A stretch of DNA of 43,250 bases from a virus (taxonomy: Duplodnaviria > Heunggongvirae > Uroviricota > Caudoviricetes), in IMG/VR virus record IMGVR_UViG_2654587569_000010. The stretch is one strand, 5' to 3'. The position numbers were made by a program, and so were the translations under genes. Numbering within the stretch: the stretch's first letter is position 1; each line of letters opens with the position of its first letter. This document shows positions 18,970 through 43,250 of this stretch, piece by piece. The notes beneath the pieces were generated by a model. The model was not told where the DNA came from. It did no database searches and saw nothing but the letters and a program-made list of their open reading frames with translations.

Positions 18970-20385
18970 TCAACCTACACCACAAGGAATTGAGTAACTG
19001 GAATAGTCGGGTTGCGCAGCCGACTCCGGACAATGCATACACATCATCAACGCATCAGCCAGGTTAGGAGATGGAATACCGAGCTTCTGCTTCATTTCGA
19101 CCTTAGTCATAAGCTCCAGCTTCCCGTTGTTATTGAATTTGCGCTGAATCTGCGTCAGTTCTGCAAACAGCTTCTCCAGCATCTTCTCGCCTATCGCTTC
19201 TTTGTCGAAACTCAGCATGTCGTCTGGGTCTGCATACTCACCGTGAACAACCGCCCGATATGTCAGATACAGCCTGTCAGCCAGCGCGTAATAGAATTGT
19301 GCTCGCTTATTGCGGAACACATCGCCAATAGTGCGAACGTTGTCGCCCTGCACGACTTCATCAGCCCATGCTCCGGCCTGATATGGTGCATCTTCATCGA
19401 ATGGCGATTCGCTGCCCTTGAACATCGTGGCGGTGATTTTCTTACCGGAGAACGCTTCCGTTGTCTGTCTGCGTAGACCTGCACCAACACCATCACCATC
19501 CCACAGGTAATGGTCAGCGCCGTCTTCAATCGCCAGCGAAGTAGCCCAGTCAGCACCCTCGTTGATGTCCATCAGCAGACCTTCGGCAATGCGCTTAACT
19601 ACCGAACCATGACGCGATGCATAACCTTTAGCATCTGGCCCTGTATCTGATGGGTCATGCGCAGAGACAACAGCGCCTTTCGCTTTCCATCCGAGTTTCT
19701 TGTGCGCATCGGTTGCAGCTTCAAGCCATTCTCGTTTGATGATTGCCATATCACTTGCGCTTACCGGCTCACCAAGCCAGATGTGACGATACAGTGTCGG
19801 ATTTCTGCGTTTGCACTCTTCCATCTCCAGACGGAGAACTTCAGGAAAGTGCGGGTTGTCGGTGTAGTTCACCGTCAGCAGGCAAATATCATCGGGAGGA
19901 TTTACGACGAATCGCTGATAGGTATCGTCGAGGATGTTCTTCGGGTTAAAGCTCACCCATATTTCAGAGAACGGCTTACGGATGGTTGGAATCAGGATAT
20001 CCCATGATTCCTTCGTTACCGCTTCCGCTTCTTCCACCCAGCATATATCAATGCCTTCGAGCGATTTAATCTTCGTCGGGTTGTTTTTGATGCCGTAGAA
20101 CATGAACTCAGCATTCGTTCCGAGATGACGAATCATTGAACGCTGAATTTCAAACTCAGCCGAATACCCTTCACGCTCGATGGTATCTTCAAGCAACCGG
20201 ATTACCGAATCGCTGATACTGTTTTGCAGTTCACGAGCGCAGAGAATACGCACAGGCTGACGACGCGCCGCTTCAACAAGCAGCCTCGCAATTGCCCATG
20301 ACTTACCGCTACCTCGACCGCCTTTGGCGACTTTGTAGCGATGCGCCTCAATGAACGGTTCAAAGATAGGATTAATCGAGGTCAT
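18970..20385 (-). CDS. terminase large subunit
   Basis: 471 aa; Walker A KGGRGSGKS near N-terminus; ATGA overlap with small subunit. Confidence 0.9.
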   Translation of the reverse strand: MTSINPIFEPFIEAHRYKVAKGGRGSGKSWAIARLLVEAARRQPVRILCARELQNSISDSVIRLLEDTIEREGYSAEFEIQRSMIRHLGTNAEFMFYGIKNNPTKIKSLEGIDICWVEEAEAVTKESWDILIPTIRKPFSEIWVSFNPKNILDDTYQRFVVNPPDDICLLTVNYTDNPHFPEVLRLEMEECKRRNPTLYRHIWLGEPVSASDMAIIKREWLEAATDAHKKLGWKAKGAVVSAHDPSDTGPDAKGYASRHGSVVKRIAEGLLMDINEGADWATSLAIEDGADHYLWDGDGVGAGLRRQTTEAFSGKKITATMFKGSESPFDEDAPYQAGAWADEVVQGDNVRTIGDVFRNKRAQFYYALADRLYLTYRAVVHGEYADPDDMLSFDKEAIGEKMLEKLFAELTQIQRKFNNNGKLELMTKVEMKQKLGIPSPNLADALMMCMHCPESAAQPDYSSYSIPCGVG

Positions 20386-23416: not shown

Positions 23417-23492
23417 TGGTGCTGGTTAACGGACTTGAACCGCTACCCATTCGCTTACAAGGCGACTGCTCTACCATTGGAGCTAAACCAGC
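23417..23492 (-). tRNA. tRNA-Thr (anticodon UGU), CCA encoded
   Basis: 76-nt cloverleaf by hand: acceptor GCTGGTT/AACCAGC, D-arm GCTC-CAATGGTA-GAGC, anticodon loop CTTGTAA, T-arm AGCGG-TTCAAGT-CCGTT; one mismatch in anticodon stem. Confidence 0.6.
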
Positions 23493-23497
23493 ATATT

Positions 23498-23572
23498 TGG
23501 CGGGACAGCGTGGACTCGAACCACGATAAGAAGGTTAACAGCCTTCCGTAATGACCTTTATACGACTGACCC
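23498..23572 (-). tRNA. tRNA-Asn-like (anticodon GUU), CCA encoded, atypical D-arm
   Basis: Anticodon stem GAAGG/CCTTC with loop CTGTTAA, T-arm CGTGG-TTCGAGT-CCACG, acceptor with one T-T mismatch; 5 nt upstream of tRNA-Thr. Confidence 0.5.
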
Positions 23573-40413: not shown

Positions 40414-40614
40414 ATGCAACACGAACTACAGCCTGATTCCCTGGTTGATTTGAAATTCATCATGGCTGATACTGGCTTTGGTAAAACCTTCATCTACGAC
40501 CGGATTAAGTCCGGCGACCTGCCAAAAGCCAAAGTTATCCACGGGCGAGCAAGATGGTTATATCGTGACCATTGTGAATTCAAAAATAAGCTCTTAAGCC
40601 GCGCCAATGGGTAA
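40414..40614 (+). CDS. torI: excisionase / recombination directionality factor, TorI-like
   Basis: 66 aa; MQHELQPDSLVDLKFIMADTGFGKTFIYDRIKSGDLPKAKVIHGRARW recalled as E. coli TorI, the KplE1 prophage RDF. Confidence 0.7.
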   Translation: MQHELQPDSLVDLKFIMADTGFGKTFIYDRIKSGDLPKAKVIHGRARWLYRDHCEFKNKLLSRANG

Positions 40615-40682
40615 AATAGCGGGTAAAATATTTCTCACACCTAAAAAACACCATTCCAATCAATCCCCTGCCGCTTCAAGTA

Positions 40683-40702
40683 GATGTCTGCAGGGGACAC
40701 CA
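40683..40702 (+). other. att core-like sequence identical to the 3' end of tRNA-Arg (argW-type); proposed right prophage junction
   Basis: CTGCAGGGGACACCA matches the recalled argW 3' end; a related 16-nt T-loop-type fragment TTGCAGGTTCGATTCC lies at 40379..40394. Confidence 0.5.
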
Positions 40703-40866
40703 TCCCGCCGTACACTAACGTCTACCATTGTCTATAAACCCCATGTAACCATATAAAAATAAAGAGATTTTATTCTCATGACGTCCATTGCCGTCTATTG
40801 AAATCAAGTAAATCTATGGGGCATAATTGGGGGCATTGCTGGTTCGATTGTAAATGTGCCCCCAAT

Positions 40867-42153
40867 ATGTCCAGAAATACCCTCAACAAATTAACAGACC
40901 GTCAGTGCAAAGCAGCTAAGCCACGAGACAAAACTTATAAATTGTCTGATGGTGGTGGTCTTTATCTTGAAGTATCCCAGACCGGGTCGAAGTATTGGCG
41001 AATGAAGTATCGCCGCCCATCAGATAAGAAAGAAGACAGACTTGCTTTTGGTGTATATCCAACCATTAGCTTACAAGACGCCAGAGAAAAACGAGACAAC
41101 GCCAAAAAGTTGTTAGTCAAGGGGATAGATCCCAAAGCAGAGCAAAGAGCAGCAAAAGCAGAAGAAAAAGGTGCATTCACTTTTGAGACAATAGGACGTC
41201 AATGGGTTGAAAGCCACCAGATGTGGAACGAAGCCCACCGAAAACGCGTACTTAGAAGCCTTGAAATGTATATTTTCCCTCACATTGGCACTTCGGATAT
41301 TCGCAAACTGGAGGCGATGACAATTTTACCTTTGTTTAAGAAGGTAGATGACGCCGGGAAACACGATACAGCCAACCGACTTAAACAACGAGTTAAGGAC
41401 ATCATACATAGCGCCCGTCTGAGCGGCATTAAGACAGAAATCATCACGAATGATCTCGATGTCCGGTTAATGCAATATGAAACTAAGCATCATGCCGCAC
41501 TACATCCCAGAGATTTACCAGACTTTTTCACTCGATTGGGCAGCTTTAAAGGTAATCCTCTTACCCGCCTTGCCATTGAGCTAACCATGTTGACCTTTGT
41601 TCGTTCAAGCGAGTTAAGGTTTGCCCGTTGGAAAGAGTTTGACCTTGATCGGGCTGAGTGGATTATCCCTAAAAAAAGAGAGCCTATCGATGGTGTGAGG
41701 TTTTCCACCCGTGGCACAAAGACGGGAAAAGACGAACATATCGTGCTTCTTAGCCGTCAGGCTGTTTCTATTGTAAAGCAGTTGAGAGAACTAAGCGGAA
41801 GCTACGATGTTGTGTTTCCGAATGAAAGAAACACCAAAGGCGTGATGAGTGAAAACACGGTAAACAAGGCATTACGCTTAATGGGCTATAACACGCAAGA
41901 GGACGTAACTGGACATGGATTCCGTGCCACAGCCTGTAGTTCCCTGATGGAGTCCGGTTTGTGGCAGGAGGACGCAGTAGAGCGCCAGATGAGCCACAAA
42001 GAATATAAAGACGTTAAAAGAGCCTACAAGCACAAGGCTGATTACTTAGAAGAGCGCAAACTAATGCTTCAATGGTGGGCAGATTATCTGGACGCCAATC
42101 GAGAAATACACATAAGCCCTTACGAGTTCGGAAGGAGAACACGCCGTGACTAA
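40867..42153 (+). CDS. int: tyrosine integrase, P4 type (second copy, divergent from 1..1158)
   Basis: MSRNTLNKLTDRQCKAAKPRDKTYKLSDGGGLYLEV P4-type N-terminus; C-terminal HGFRAT...MSH...AYKHKADY retains R, H and Y; track ORF 40798.. has a TTG-extended N-terminus. Confidence 0.8.
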   Translation: MSRNTLNKLTDRQCKAAKPRDKTYKLSDGGGLYLEVSQTGSKYWRMKYRRPSDKKEDRLAFGVYPTISLQDAREKRDNAKKLLVKGIDPKAEQRAAKAEEKGAFTFETIGRQWVESHQMWNEAHRKRVLRSLEMYIFPHIGTSDIRKLEAMTILPLFKKVDDAGKHDTANRLKQRVKDIIHSARLSGIKTEIITNDLDVRLMQYETKHHAALHPRDLPDFFTRLGSFKGNPLTRLAIELTMLTFVRSSELRFARWKEFDLDRAEWIIPKKREPIDGVRFSTRGTKTGKDEHIVLLSRQAVSIVKQLRELSGSYDVVFPNERNTKGVMSENTVNKALRLMGYNTQEDVTGHGFRATACSSLMESGLWQEDAVERQMSHKEYKDVKRAYKHKADYLEERKLMLQWWADYLDANREIHISPYEFGRRTRRD

Positions 42154-42901
42154 GATGACAGGACTAGATGCGTTTTATAACGAGTCAGAAGATAAAATCT
42201 GGTTTGGTAATCTGATCAGCGAACTGGCAAGACTAAACAATGAAAATGAAAGAATGATAGCTGCCGCTATCTTAAGTAACTACAGATTGAGCAAGACTAA
42301 ACCAGATACTTTAGGGGGGCTGGGCTTTTATCAGTTCGATTGGGTATCTGGTTTTACGACAAATGAAGACTTTGAAAAGCAGTGTGTGGAGTTTTTAGGT
42401 CTTCTGGCTATGGGGCATGAATACAGGGAGAGCCCGATACCGGGGGAAGAAGGGACTTTCAACGTTAGGAAAGGAGAAGACTTTTTATATCACGATGATG
42501 AGGATGATTGGTATGGGTCTTACGATTCGTTTTATTTCAAGCGATCCGAGGTTGTGAACTTCTTCCCAGAACTGGATATGAATGTTCCAGATAACGAACC
42601 AGAAATTGGAGCACTGTCAAAAAAAGTAGAAAGAGAACAAAACTGGAGAGGAAAAGATACGGCTTTAAAGATGATCGCCGGAATGGCGATTGCCTTATTT
42701 GAATCAAGCAAAGATTTCCATAGTGGAGGAAACCTTAGTATCAATAGGGTTAGTGCCCAAGTAATAGAAAACAACATAATATTCGGGAACGATGAAGACA
42801 GCGATACCCACCCAGATACATTTCGGAGATTGCTAACGAACGCTTTGGATAAGTACGCCCCCAAATTTAAGAACAAAGCAACCAAAAAGCGTCCAAAATA
42901 A
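42146..42901 (+). CDS. hypothetical acidic protein (251 aa), translationally coupled to integrase
   Basis: GTG start with GGAG SD 8 nt upstream, overlapping int stop; no recognisable domain; no TM segments. Confidence 0.5.
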   Translation: MTKMTGLDAFYNESEDKIWFGNLISELARLNNENERMIAAAILSNYRLSKTKPDTLGGLGFYQFDWVSGFTTNEDFEKQCVEFLGLLAMGHEYRESPIPGEEGTFNVRKGEDFLYHDDEDDWYGSYDSFYFKRSEVVNFFPELDMNVPDNEPEIGALSKKVEREQNWRGKDTALKMIAGMAIALFESSKDFHSGGNLSINRVSAQVIENNIIFGNDEDSDTHPDTFRRLLTNALDKYAPKFKNKATKKRPK

Positions 42902-43058
42902 AGGAAGGATGTTCCCAAATTGTGCGTTAGAACTAAAAAATAACGCCCAATTTGGGGTAATTCTATTCCCAAAAATTTTTTCTCCAAATTCACAGAAAAC
43001 TTAAAAAAAACAATGATTTACTATCTCACATAGTCAAGCAACGTATTACGAGGTAGAT

Positions 43059-43250
43059 ATGAAAAAGTCGCTGATTCGGCTATCTGAGGTTTTGAAACGC
43101 ACTGGCTATAGCAAGGCGTGGGTATATGCTCTGATGAGCCGAGGACAATTCCCCCAATCAGTCAAGATTGGTGCTCGCGCAATAGCTTTTATTGAAAGCG
43201 AGATCGATGACTGGATCGATCAACGTATAGCCGAATCGCGTAGCAACTAA
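43059..43250 (+). CDS. alpA: AlpA-family transcriptional regulator / excisionase
   Basis: 63 aa; LIRLSEVLKRTGYSKAWVYALMSRGQFPQSVKIGARAIAFIESEIDDWI fits AlpA HTH; GAGGTAG SD. Confidence 0.75.
   Translation: MKKSLIRLSEVLKRTGYSKAWVYALMSRGQFPQSVKIGARAIAFIESEIDDWIDQRIAESRSN

What the first reader, a model, noticed from the sequence alone, without database searches (positions are those of the whole stretch)
42146..42901. Unknown 251-aa acidic protein translationally coupled to the second integrase
Its GTG start with a good SD overlaps the integrase stop, and it sits between int and alpA, the position where satellites and islands carry regulators or accessory cargo (anti-phage or interference functions). 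I could not match it to any family from memory.
Basis: inference. Interest (0 to 1): 0.55.

Follow-up and report, generated by a model that had tools for sequence, protein, structure and literature searches.

The report
Likely regulator gating a phage-satellite switch
The unknown 251-aa gene is real and belongs to an unnamed two-domain protein family that always sits between the integrase and alpA of phage-satellite-like islands in enterobacteria, where its basic C-terminal domain most likely binds a row of DNA repeats in front of alpA and so controls whether the island wakes up.

Summary
The ORF (42146-42901, +) is confirmed. It has a GTG start, a GGAAGGAG Shine-Dalgarno sequence and an 8-nt overlap with the integrase stop. 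It is under purifying selection (dN/dS 0.05-0.3).

It lies in a ~10.3-kb argW island placed in tandem behind a Kapi1/CUS-3-like P22-type prophage. The island backbone is int-X-alpA-...-rolling-circle Rep-[defence hotspot]-resolvase.

X matches nothing in Pfam, PHROGs, NCBIfam, PADLOC or the PDB. An exhaustive HMM search finds only 29 clusters; every one with a taxon label is Enterobacterales, apart from one Pseudomonadota MAG.

X has an acidic N-domain (pI 4.3), a disordered linker and a basic ~80-aa C-domain (pI 9-10). Relatives in ten genera sit directly after a P4-type integrase, and before alpA wherever the contig reaches it.

The X-alpA spacer carries 4-5 same-strand, helically phased repeats, the last overlapping the alpA -35. 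The repeat sequence follows the C-domain type, not the N-domain, Int or AlpA.

Best reading: X is the DNA-binding gatekeeper of the alpA promoter, with a swappable sensor domain. The sign of regulation is undecided. It is not defence cargo; that sits elsewhere in the island. The closest known analogue is iolg of Vibrio PICMI satellites.

The parts
40683..40702 (.). argW 3'-end copy (GATGTCTGCAGGGGACACCA). It is the junction between the P22-like prophage (attR) and the island (attL).
   Evidence: In L001 a direct repeat pairs with a second copy 10.3 kb downstream at the far end of the island. In strains without the prophage, tRNA-Arg sits directly before int.
40867..42153 (+). Island integrase, 428 aa, P4-type tyrosine recombinase.
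   Evidence: Pfam Arm-DNA-bind_3 7e-29, Phage_int_M 1e-18, Phage_integrase 9e-17. The start codon follows RefSeq; the longer TTG ORF from 40798 is probably not used.
42130..42137 (+). Shine-Dalgarno GGAAGGAG for X, inside the 3' end of int.
   Evidence: Read directly from the sequence. Conserved in all four E. coli allele types.
42146..42901 (+). X, the 251-aa ORF of the finding. GTG start with an 8-nt overlap with the int stop.
42146..42577 (+). N-domain (aa 1-144): acidic alpha/beta domain, the proposed sensor or protein-binding module.
   Evidence: pLDDT 77-94 over most of residues 11-140 (63 for 111-120). pI 4.3, net charge -16. About 99% conserved among E. coli alleles with dN/dS 0.05-0.3. 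Homologous N-domains occur with an unrelated C-terminus in Providencia (E 5e-21).
42578..42637 (+). Disordered acidic linker (aa 145-164).
   Evidence: pLDDT below 50 for residues 145-164. Length and sequence vary in the alignments.
42638..42898 (+). C-domain (aa 165-251): basic helical domain with the motif W-x-G-K-D-T-A-x-x-x-I-A-G-x-A-I-A-L ... N-K/x-S. Proposed sequence-specific DNA-binding module.
   Evidence: pLDDT 80-90 for most of residues 165-244. pI 9.8. It is the element shared by the whole family. Its type predicts the downstream repeat motif.
42586..43002 (+). Variable cassette: the C-terminal half of X plus the spacer up to the alpA promoter. The flanks are 95-96% identical between allele types, but this stretch shows no DNA similarity.
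   Evidence: BLAST breakpoints of L001 against L005 (L001 22286/22704, converted to window coordinates). DNA matches of the other allele types stop at nt 431 of the ORF.
42860..42867 (+). Repeat R0 (CCCAAATT), inside the 3' end of X.
42911..42920 (+). Repeat R1 (TTCCCAAATT), about -145 from the alpA ATG.
42943..42952 (+). Repeat R2 (CGCCCAATTT), about -113 from the alpA ATG. Part of a palindrome.
42966..42975 (+). Repeat R3 (TTCCCAAAAA), about -90 from the alpA ATG.
   Evidence: Read from the sequence. The corresponding position is occupied in the other loci.
42982..42990 (+). Repeat R4 (CTCCAAATT), abutting and overlapping the -35 of the alpA promoter.
   Evidence: In the other genera the proximal repeat is CTTCCACA at the same distance.
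42914..42956 (+). 16-bp-arm hairpin just after the X stop codon. Probably the 3' end or terminator of the int-X transcript. It contains R1 and R2.
   Evidence: Inverted repeat I1. RNA fold -27.2 kcal/mol, z -6.05. Similar hairpins occur in most other loci but not all.
42989..43017 (+). Predicted sigma-70 promoter of alpA (TTCACA, 17-nt spacer, AATGAT).
   Evidence: Consensus scan, 9 of 12 positions. This is a prediction only.
43059..43250 (+). alpA (63 aa), the known master activator or excision factor of Gram-negative PICI-type satellites.
   Evidence: Pfam Phage_AlpA 3.6e-18. Its role is described in PMC6092414 and PMC11773190.

Best explanation
X is the island's own sequence-specific regulator of the alpA promoter.

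Shown:
- X is a two-domain protein: an acidic N-domain, a disordered linker and a basic ~80-aa C-domain.
- In the E. coli, Klebsiella and Erwinia clade it is translated from the int transcript through an overlapping start codon.
- The spacer between X and alpA holds 4-5 same-strand copies of a short motif, TCCCAAAT in this window.
- The gaps between repeats are mostly close to multiples of about 10.5 bp, and the last copy overlaps the -35 of the alpA promoter.
- The repeat sequence changes with the C-domain type and with nothing else encoded in the island.

Inferred:
- The C-domain binds these repeats cooperatively on one face of the DNA helix and thereby sets whether RNA polymerase can start at PalpA.
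- The N-domain is exchanged between at least four unrelated types across the family. It would be the input module that senses a helper-phage or cell-state signal.
- Because AlpA is the switch for excision and replication in such islands, X would decide when the island is induced.

Least certain step: the sign of regulation. I lean towards a licensing or activating role. The sites lie upstream of and at the -35 of a weak promoter, none lies downstream of it, and the positional analogue iolg is required for satellite excision. An Stl-like repressor reading fits the same anatomy.
For: 1. Position. Every relative examined sits directly after a P4-type integrase, or after the remnant of one. It sits before alpA wherever the contig extends that far. 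The islands differ in integration site and replication module: rolling-circle Rep, Zn-ribbon primase/Toprim with DUF927, or D5 primase-helicase.

2. Repeats. The spacer holds 4-6 co-oriented copies at conserved distances from the alpA ATG, about -188, -157, -115, -92 and -71. The 8-mer counts beat 97-100 of 100 shuffles in Serratia, Acerihabitans, Enterobacter and Rouxiella. They are confined to this spacer: all 3 ACTTCCAA in 16.8 kb of L018, and 4 of 7 TTAC[CT]A[AC]A in 20.7 kb of L005.

3. Natural swap within E. coli. Allele types T2 and T4 have identical Int (429/429). AlpA is 63/64, orf63 63/64, the 64-aa HTH protein 65/65 and orf128 128/129 identical. Yet their C-domains are only 17% identical, and the repeats change from TCCCAAAT to TTACCAAAC.

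4. A 2x2 swap across taxa.
- N-type A with C1 (this window, Serratia) gives CCAAA-type repeats.
- N-type A with C2 (Providencia) gives TTACCCT repeats.
- N-type 'MIDI' with C1 (L032) gives six ACTTCCA repeats.
- N-type 'MIDI' with C2 (E. coli L029/L030) gives ACCCTnAGGGT repeats.

5. AlpA is excluded as the specificity determinant. Its DNA-contact segments (RTGYSKAWIYRL, VKIGxRxIAFxESE) are nearly invariant across islands with entirely different repeats. EcCIMP1 has a similar AlpA but neither X nor repeats.

6. Charge. The C-domain has pI above 8 in 22 of the 24 family members computed (mostly 9-10, two at 6.5). The N-domains are mostly acidic.

7. Modularity. The two domains are encoded as separate ORFs in L027, with five CTTCCAAA-type repeats still downstream.

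8. Literature gap. No master repressor or phage-sensing factor is known for Gram-negative PICIs. alpA is switched on by the helper phage through an unidentified inducer (PMC6092414; PMC10803314).
Against: - There is no experimental or homology evidence that the C-domain binds DNA. It has no Pfam, PHROG or PDB sequence match.
- The C-domain is not a canonical helix-turn-helix in the model.
- The C-domain and the repeats are physically adjacent. Their co-variation could partly reflect linkage within one recombination cassette.
- A common CCAAA core runs through all C1-type motifs.
- In this window the 8-mer repeat count alone is not significant in an A/T-rich spacer (34 of 100 shuffles reach it; YCCCAAWWT is not enriched window-wide). 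The case here rests on clustering and on comparison with other loci.
- The promoter is only a consensus match.
- The sign of regulation is not determined by any result.
Confidence: 0.55

Rival explanations
1. X is an excision or integration cofactor of the integrase, as proposed for IOLG of PICMI satellites. It would act through protein-protein contacts with Int and AlpA in the recombination complex, not as a transcription factor. The repeats would then be bound by something else.
Against: The repeats lie about 2.2 kb from the att core (40683-40702 against 42860-42990), which is too far for arm-type sites. The overlap with int is limited to one clade. The same N-domain type occurs next to integrases at different chromosomal sites. 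This reading does not explain why the repeat motif tracks the C-domain.
Confidence: 0.13
2. The repeats are the landing pad of a helper-phage (or host) activator, the unknown 'inducer' of alpA. They co-vary with the C-domain only because both lie in one recombination cassette. In that case X's function is unrelated or unknown.
For: In classical E. coli PICIs, helper phages induce a PalpA reporter in cells that lack the island (PMC6092414). The variable cassette is one contiguous DNA block. A CCAAA core is common to all C1-type motifs.
Against: The link between C1 and CCAAA-type repeats persists across genera in which the C-domains are only about 20-40% identical and everything around them has diverged. 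Islands with a similar AlpA but no X lack the repeats. The cassette's left border coincides with the domain linker of X rather than with the gene end.
Confidence: 0.12
3. X is accessory cargo that acts on phages or incoming DNA, for example an acidic DNA-mimic anti-restriction or interference protein.
For: The N-domain is very acidic (net charge -16 in 149 aa). The island family does carry defence systems. X has no known function.
Against: X is a conserved backbone gene, whereas the cargo varies at a different locus between Rep and the resolvase. There is no PADLOC hit and no copy in the phage or plasmid collections. The basic C-domain and the phased repeats are left unexplained.
Confidence: 0.07
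4. X is an iteron-binding replication or partition protein, and the repeats form part of the island's origin or centromere.
For: The repeats are 4-6 direct copies spaced 21-42 bp apart, which resembles plasmid iterons.
Against: The islands already encode their own, mutually unrelated replicases: rolling-circle Rep, primase/Toprim with DUF927, or D5 primase-helicase. In Gram-negative PICIs the origin lies downstream of pri (PMC10111431). The proximal repeat always overlaps the alpA -35.
Confidence: 0.04

Closest known systems
iolg / icg (integrase-overlapping or integrase-contiguous gene) of Vibrio PICMI satellites (PMC10803314)
   Same: It is a gene of unknown function lying between int and alpA, and it often overlaps the int stop by 1-13 nt (here 8 nt). 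It is expressed constitutively with int. It is part of the minimal backbone of a phage satellite. It comes in many unrelated sequence families.
   Different: No sequence relationship could be shown. The exhaustive search for X relatives returned no Vibrio member; every taxon-labelled hit is Enterobacterales apart from one Pseudomonadota MAG. PICMIs integrate next to fis and use a primase, whereas this island sits at argW and has a rolling-circle Rep. The PICMI authors propose an excision-complex role; no DNA repeats or promoter role were described.
Stl / Rpr master repressors of Gram-positive PICIs (SaPIs)
   Same: The proposed logic is the same: a satellite-encoded modular regulator with one DNA-binding module and one swappable module that senses a helper-phage protein, controlling the satellite's induction switch.
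   Different: Stl has an N-terminal HTH and is transcribed divergently from the genes it represses. X has no HTH signature, its DNA-binding candidate is C-terminal, and it is co-oriented with int and alpA. Repression is not demonstrated. No homology was found.
DUF6387 (PF19924) and other unnamed int-alpA spacer proteins of E. coli PICI-like islands
   Same: They occupy the same slot (int, then a 230-290-aa protein, then repeats, then alpA) in islands at other tRNA sites. Each has its own repeated motif in front of alpA.
   Different: X does not match PF19924, and the C-domains are different. DUF6387 is itself uncharacterised.
Lambdoid and P2-type immunity modules (repressor with cognate operators as an exchangeable cassette)
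   Same: A sharply bounded, highly divergent cassette holds a DNA-recognition domain and its target repeats, embedded in flanks that are about 95-99% identical. This gives several 'immunity types' within one species.
   Different: Only half of the gene (the C-domain) is in the cassette. The protein is unrelated to CI, C or Cro. The targets are direct repeats upstream of and at the -35, not operators spanning the promoter.

Membership tests
PICMI iolg/icg | ORF overlaps or abuts the 3' end of int on the same strand. | tested here: met
   8-nt overlap, GTGACTAA.
PICMI iolg/icg | The ORF lies between int and alpA in a small satellite-like island. | tested here: met
   int 40867-42153, X 42146-42901, alpA 43059-43250. 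The island is 10.3 kb and bounded by att repeats.
PICMI iolg/icg | The element is a PICMI: int, alpA and a DUF3987/DUF5906 primase, integrated downstream of fis. | tested here: not met
   The island is at argW and carries a rolling-circle Rep (PF23343), with no primase.
PICMI iolg/icg | Required for helper-induced excision. | not testable with these tools
   This needs a deletion mutant and a helper phage.
PICMI iolg/icg | Sequence similarity to one of the 13 described iolg/icg families. | not tested
Indirectly, the exhaustive HMM search found no Vibrio member; every taxon-labelled hit is Enterobacterales apart from one Pseudomonadota MAG.
Stl-like PICI master repressor | N-terminal HTH (HTH_3 / XRE-type) DNA-binding domain. 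| tested here: not met
   No Pfam or NCBIfam hit at E up to 1. The N-domain is acidic, pI 4.3.
Stl-like PICI master repressor | Transcribed divergently from the regulated operon. | tested here: not met
   X and alpA are on the same strand.
Stl-like PICI master repressor | Binds a helper-phage protein that relieves repression. | not testable with these tools
   This needs interaction assays.
AlpA / Xis-type recombination directionality factors (PF05930, PF12728) | Small winged-helix protein that matches the family profile. | tested here: not met
Known anti-phage defence proteins (PADLOC-DB) | Profile match to a defence-system component. | tested here: not met
   0 families at E up to 1. As a control, the AriA/AriB cargo of a sister island is detected.
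DUF6387 (PF19924) | Profile match above the gathering score. | tested here: not met
   X has no hit. The slot-equivalent protein of L028 scores 3.7e-38.
Gram-negative PICI (Fillol-Salom 2018 definition), applied to the host island | int and alpA co-oriented at one end, own replication module, no structural or lysis genes, att repeats, size about 10-20 kb. | tested here: met
Gram-negative PICI (Fillol-Salom 2018 definition), applied to the host island | pri-rep primase replication module and a packaging or capsid-redirection gene. | tested here: not met
   The replication gene is a HUH/rolling-circle Rep. No terS, rppA or capsid genes were found.
Gram-negative PICI (Fillol-Salom 2018 definition), applied to the host island | Induction and transfer by a helper phage. 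| not testable with these tools
   The only related fact is the tandem position behind a Kapi1/CUS-3-like prophage.

The most novel reading that the evidence does not exclude
X-type proteins (C1, C2, DUF6387 and other classes) could be the missing phage-sensing master regulators of Gram-negative PICI-like satellites and defence islands. Each would be a modular protein, constitutively made with Int. Its swappable N-domain would detect a helper-phage product. Its C-domain, bound to phased repeats at the alpA promoter, would convert that signal into alpA transcription. This would explain helper specificity and 'immunity types' among co-resident islands.
Probability: 0.3. Interest if true: 0.8.

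Novelty: new variant of a known kind. Interest (0 to 1): 0.6.

Why it matters
How Gram-negative phage satellites sense their helper phage is an open question. AlpA is known to be the switch, but what turns alpA on is unknown. Both the 2018 PICI paper and the 2024 PICMI paper state this explicitly.

This ORF family offers a concrete, testable candidate. It is a protein made together with the integrase, and its DNA-recognition half co-varies with a repeat array sitting on the alpA promoter.

The E. coli population already provides four natural 'specificity swaps' on an otherwise near-identical backbone, which makes EMSA, reporter and swap experiments straightforward.

The host island is also a carrier of defence systems (PARIS, GapS6 and several unknown gene pairs). 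Understanding its induction switch therefore bears on how defence genes move between strains.

Tried and rejected
- Profile searches of X and of ten distant relatives against Pfam, PHROGs, NCBIfam and PADLOC gave nothing usable.
- PDB sequence searches with X and with a 24-sequence C-domain profile gave only chance-level hits.
- AlphaFold with the shallow 7-sequence alignment failed (pLDDT 40). The 22-sequence alignment gave a usable model.
- tblastn found no copy in phage or plasmid collections.
- I asked whether the repeats could be integrase arm sites. I rejected this because of the distance from att and because Int is identical between motif types.
- I asked whether the repeats could be AlpA autoregulatory sites. 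I rejected this because AlpA is identical between motif types and its recognition segments are invariant.
- I asked whether EcCIMP1_002, the small ORF between int and alpA of the published PICI EcCIMP1, is a relative. It is not, and that spacer has no repeat array.
- The hairpin after the X stop might be a universal terminator. It is absent in allele types T3 and T4 and in Acerihabitans, so I treat it as a side observation.
- A single-locus 8-mer enrichment test is not significant for the E. coli spacers. The argument therefore rests on cross-locus comparison.
Full report
**Observation**

The sequence around the start reads GGAAGGAG (42130-42137), then 8 nt, then GTG (42146). The integrase stop TAA lies at 42151-42153, so the two genes overlap by 8 nt.

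Klebsiella and Erwinia homologues start with ATG at the same overlapping position (ATGGCTAA). This supports the GTG over the in-frame ATG at 42155.

The upstream gene is a P4-type tyrosine integrase, and the downstream gene (43059-43250) is AlpA.

The gene is not a chance ORF:
- It is present in 226 of 5426 complete E. coli genomes, always on the chromosome.
- Its N-terminal half evolves under purifying selection, with dN/dS 0.05-0.3 at pS up to 0.165.
- With 22 homologues, AlphaFold predicts two folded domains joined by a disordered linker (mean pLDDT 77).

**Genomic setting**

Window positions 1-40.7 kb are a P22-like prophage related to CUS-3, phiv205-1 and Kapi1. It starts with an IntS-like integrase (1-1158) and ends with torI.

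A copy of the argW 3' end at 40683-40702 separates the prophage from a second element. In the closest complete genome (L001), a second copy lies 10.3 kb further on. In strains without the prophage, the same element sits directly at tRNA-Arg.

The element's backbone runs as follows: int, X, alpA, orf63, a 64-aa HTH_17 protein, orf128, a 350-aa rolling-circle Rep (PF23343), a variable region, a small ORF, a serine recombinase, then att.

The variable region holds different contents in different strains:
- PARIS (AriA/AriB, confirmed with PADLOC).
- GapS6a/b.
- An Sll1717-type ATPase.
- Unknown gene pairs.

So the defence or cargo slot of this island is not where X is.

**What X is related to**

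X has no significant match in Pfam, PHROGs, PADLOC, NCBIfam or PDB sequences. The word-indexed search found only close E. coli-type relatives.

An exhaustive HMM search of 1.84 billion representative proteins found 29 clusters. Those with names come from Klebsiella, Providencia/Proteus, Pantoea, Citrobacter, Dickeya, Rahnella, Serratia, Erwinia, Enterobacter, Rouxiella and Acerihabitans, plus one Pseudomonadota MAG. All are annotated 'hypothetical protein'. None of ten distant members has a Pfam or PHROG match.

The alignments show a modular protein. A conserved ~80-aa C-terminal domain, 'C1', carries the motif W/F-x-G-K-D-T-A-L-x-x-I-A-G-L-A-I-A-L ... G-x-K-x-N-K-S-A. It is joined through a variable linker to at least four unrelated N-terminal domains.

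The N-domain type found in this window also occurs in Providencia, fused to an unrelated C-terminal domain, 'C2' (E 5e-21 over the N-domain). In one contig the two halves are separate ORFs.

Charge is split throughout the family. The N-domains are mostly acidic (here pI 4.3, net charge -16). The C-domain has pI above 8 in 22 of the 24 members computed, mostly 9-10.

**Conserved position**

Every relative whose context could be read lies directly after a P4-type integrase, or after the remnant of one. It lies before alpA wherever the contig extends that far.

This holds even though the islands use different chromosomal sites and different replication modules: rolling-circle Rep, Zn-ribbon primase/Toprim with DUF927, or D5 primase-helicase.

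The overlap with int is specific to the Escherichia/Klebsiella/Erwinia clade. Other genera have a gap of 60-210 nt.

**The repeat array**

The X-alpA spacer contains a row of co-oriented short repeats.

In the window these are:
- CCCAAATT at 42860-42867, inside the end of X.
- TTCCCAAATT at 42911-42920.
- CGCCCAATTT at 42943-42952.
- TTCCCAAAAA at 42966-42975.
- CTCCAAATT at 42982-42990. This last copy abuts the predicted -35 (TTCACA at 42989-42994; -10 AATGAT at 43012-43017).

In Serratia, Acerihabitans, Rouxiella and Enterobacter the motif is CTTCCAAA in 4-5 copies. These reach or beat 97-100 of 100 shuffles and are confined to this spacer within loci of 15-20 kb.

The positions relative to the alpA ATG are conserved at about -188, -157, -115, -92 and -71. 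Most of the gaps are close to multiples of about 10.5 bp. The proximal copy is always the variant ...CCACA at the -35.

In the window alone, the 8-mer statistics are not significant in this A/T-rich spacer, and YCCCAAWWT is not enriched window-wide. The case therefore rests on clustering and on cross-locus conservation.

**The motif follows the C-domain**

Within E. coli there are four allele types. DNA identity is 95-96% across int and the first 431 nt of X, and again from the alpA promoter onwards. There is no detectable similarity in between (window 42586-43002), that is, across the C-terminal half of X plus the spacer.

Types T1 and T2 carry TCCCAAAT repeats, and T3 and T4 carry TTACCAAAC. 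C-domain identity is 41% for T1-T2, 51% for T3-T4, and 17-30% between the two groups.

Everything else on the backbone is essentially the same. Between T2 and T4, Int is 429/429, AlpA 63/64, orf63 63/64, the HTH protein 65/65 and orf128 128/129 identical.

Across taxa a 2x2 pattern holds:

| N-domain type | C-domain type | Example loci | Repeat motif |
|---|---|---|---|
| A | C1 | this window, Serratia | CCAAA-type |
| A | C2 | Providencia | TTACCCT |
| 'MIDI' | C1 | L032 | ACTTCCA, six copies |
| 'MIDI' | C2 | E. coli L029/L030 | ACCCTnAGGGT |

AlpA cannot be the specificity determinant. Its presumed DNA-contact segments are nearly invariant across islands with completely different repeats. 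The published PICI EcCIMP1 has a similar AlpA but neither X nor a repeat array.

Other E. coli PICI-like islands fill the same slot with a DUF6387 protein or a C2-like protein. Each has its own repeat set.

**Mechanism**

The best-supported reading is that the basic C-domain binds the phased repeats and gates the alpA promoter. The exchangeable acidic N-domain would be the input module.

This fits what is known of such islands. AlpA is the switch for excision and replication. It is turned on by the helper phage through an unidentified route, and no master repressor is known in Gram-negative PICIs (PMC6092414; PMC11773190).

The sign of regulation is not settled. Three points favour a positive or licensing role:
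- The sites lie upstream of and at the -35 of a weak-looking promoter.
- None lies downstream of the -35.
- The positional analogue is required for excision.

An Stl-like repressor is equally compatible with the anatomy.

Direct DNA binding, the promoter itself and the sensor role are all inferences.

**Comparison with known systems**

The closest described thing is iolg/icg of Vibrio PICMI satellites. These are genes of unknown function between int and alpA that overlap int by 1-13 nt. They are essential for helper-induced excision, fall into 13 unrelated families, and are proposed to join Int and AlpA in the excision complex (PMC10803314).

X shares the slot and the overlap. It does not share the element type, and no homology is shown.

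X works like Stl in logic, but it fails the defining features of Stl: an N-terminal HTH and divergent transcription. It is not an AlpA/Xis family member, not a PADLOC defence protein and not a DUF6387 member.

**Verdict**

X is a member of an unnamed modular family, restricted to Enterobacterales among all taxon-labelled members. There is strong comparative evidence that it acts as the cognate DNA-binding regulator of the alpA promoter.

It is a new variant of the kind 'satellite induction regulator / int-linked accessory gene'. It makes the open question of how Gram-negative satellites are induced directly testable.

Noticed in passing
window 1-40700: The rest of the window is a P22-like (Lederbergvirus-type) prophage, 53-62% covered at about 95% identity by phiv205-1, CUS-3 and vB_EcoP_Kapi1. 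Kapi1 is a published helper of the PICI EcCIMP1. The island sits in tandem behind this prophage at the same argW att site, so the prophage is a candidate helper.
   Followed up: partly
L001 24970-29900; L005 14130-15988; L011 14864-18490; L010 15087-16721; L015 13090-14631; L016 13008-15996 (outside the window): The island family has a cargo hotspot around the serine recombinase, usually between Rep and the recombinase. The cargo includes PARIS (AriA/AriB), GapS6a/b, an Sll1717-type P-loop ATPase, a reverse transcriptase (Klebsiella) and a pentapeptide-repeat plus NYN pair (Erwinia). Several gene pairs have no PADLOC match (820+329 aa, 232+152 aa, 469 aa), which makes them candidates for new defence systems.
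   Followed up: partly
window 42914-42956 and the equivalent places in L002, L015, L016, L018, L020, L023, L025: A stable hairpin follows the X stop codon (-27.2 kcal/mol, z -6 in the window). In several genera the second repeat sits in its loop, with different arm sequences in each genus. The hairpin is absent in E. coli allele types T3 and T4 and in Acerihabitans. It could be a terminator, an RNA element or an operator palindrome; this is unresolved.
   Followed up: partly
window 40826-40866: A perfect 10-nt inverted repeat, ATTGGGGGCA ... TGCCCCCAAT, lies immediately upstream of the integrase ATG (40867). Its CCCCCAAT arm resembles the T1 repeat motif, but the region is conserved between motif types.
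   Followed up: no
L027 307-1140: A split version of the gene: a 135-aa N-domain-like ORF and a separate 90-aa C1-only ORF lie behind a truncated integrase. Five CTTCCAAA-type repeats remain downstream.
   Followed up: partly
L028, L029, L030, L031 (other E. coli islands): Many E. coli PICI-like islands have an int, then a 230-290-aa protein, then alpA. The middle protein is DUF6387 or a coiled-coil plus 'C2' domain protein. Each spacer has its own repeat family (TCCGCTTTGAA, ACCCTnAGGGT or TAGTRCCCAC). The slot seems to be a general feature that has not been described as such.
   Followed up: partly
window 23417-23572 (- strand): tRNA-Thr(TGT) and tRNA-Asn(GTT) genes lie 5 nt apart inside the prophage.
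   Followed up: no
window 40609-40630: A perfect direct repeat, GGGTAAAATA with 12-nt spacing, overlaps the stop of torI. It lies next to the att junction.
   Followed up: no
L020 7620-7991: In the Enterobacter island an extra 123-aa ORF with no family match sits between int and the X homologue.
   Followed up: no
L012 (E. coli 2015C-4498) 20073-20273: In this strain torI lies after the island's resolvase and a lambdoid prophage lies before the island's int. The order of prophage and island at argW therefore differs between strains, which implies independent or nested integrations.
   Followed up: no
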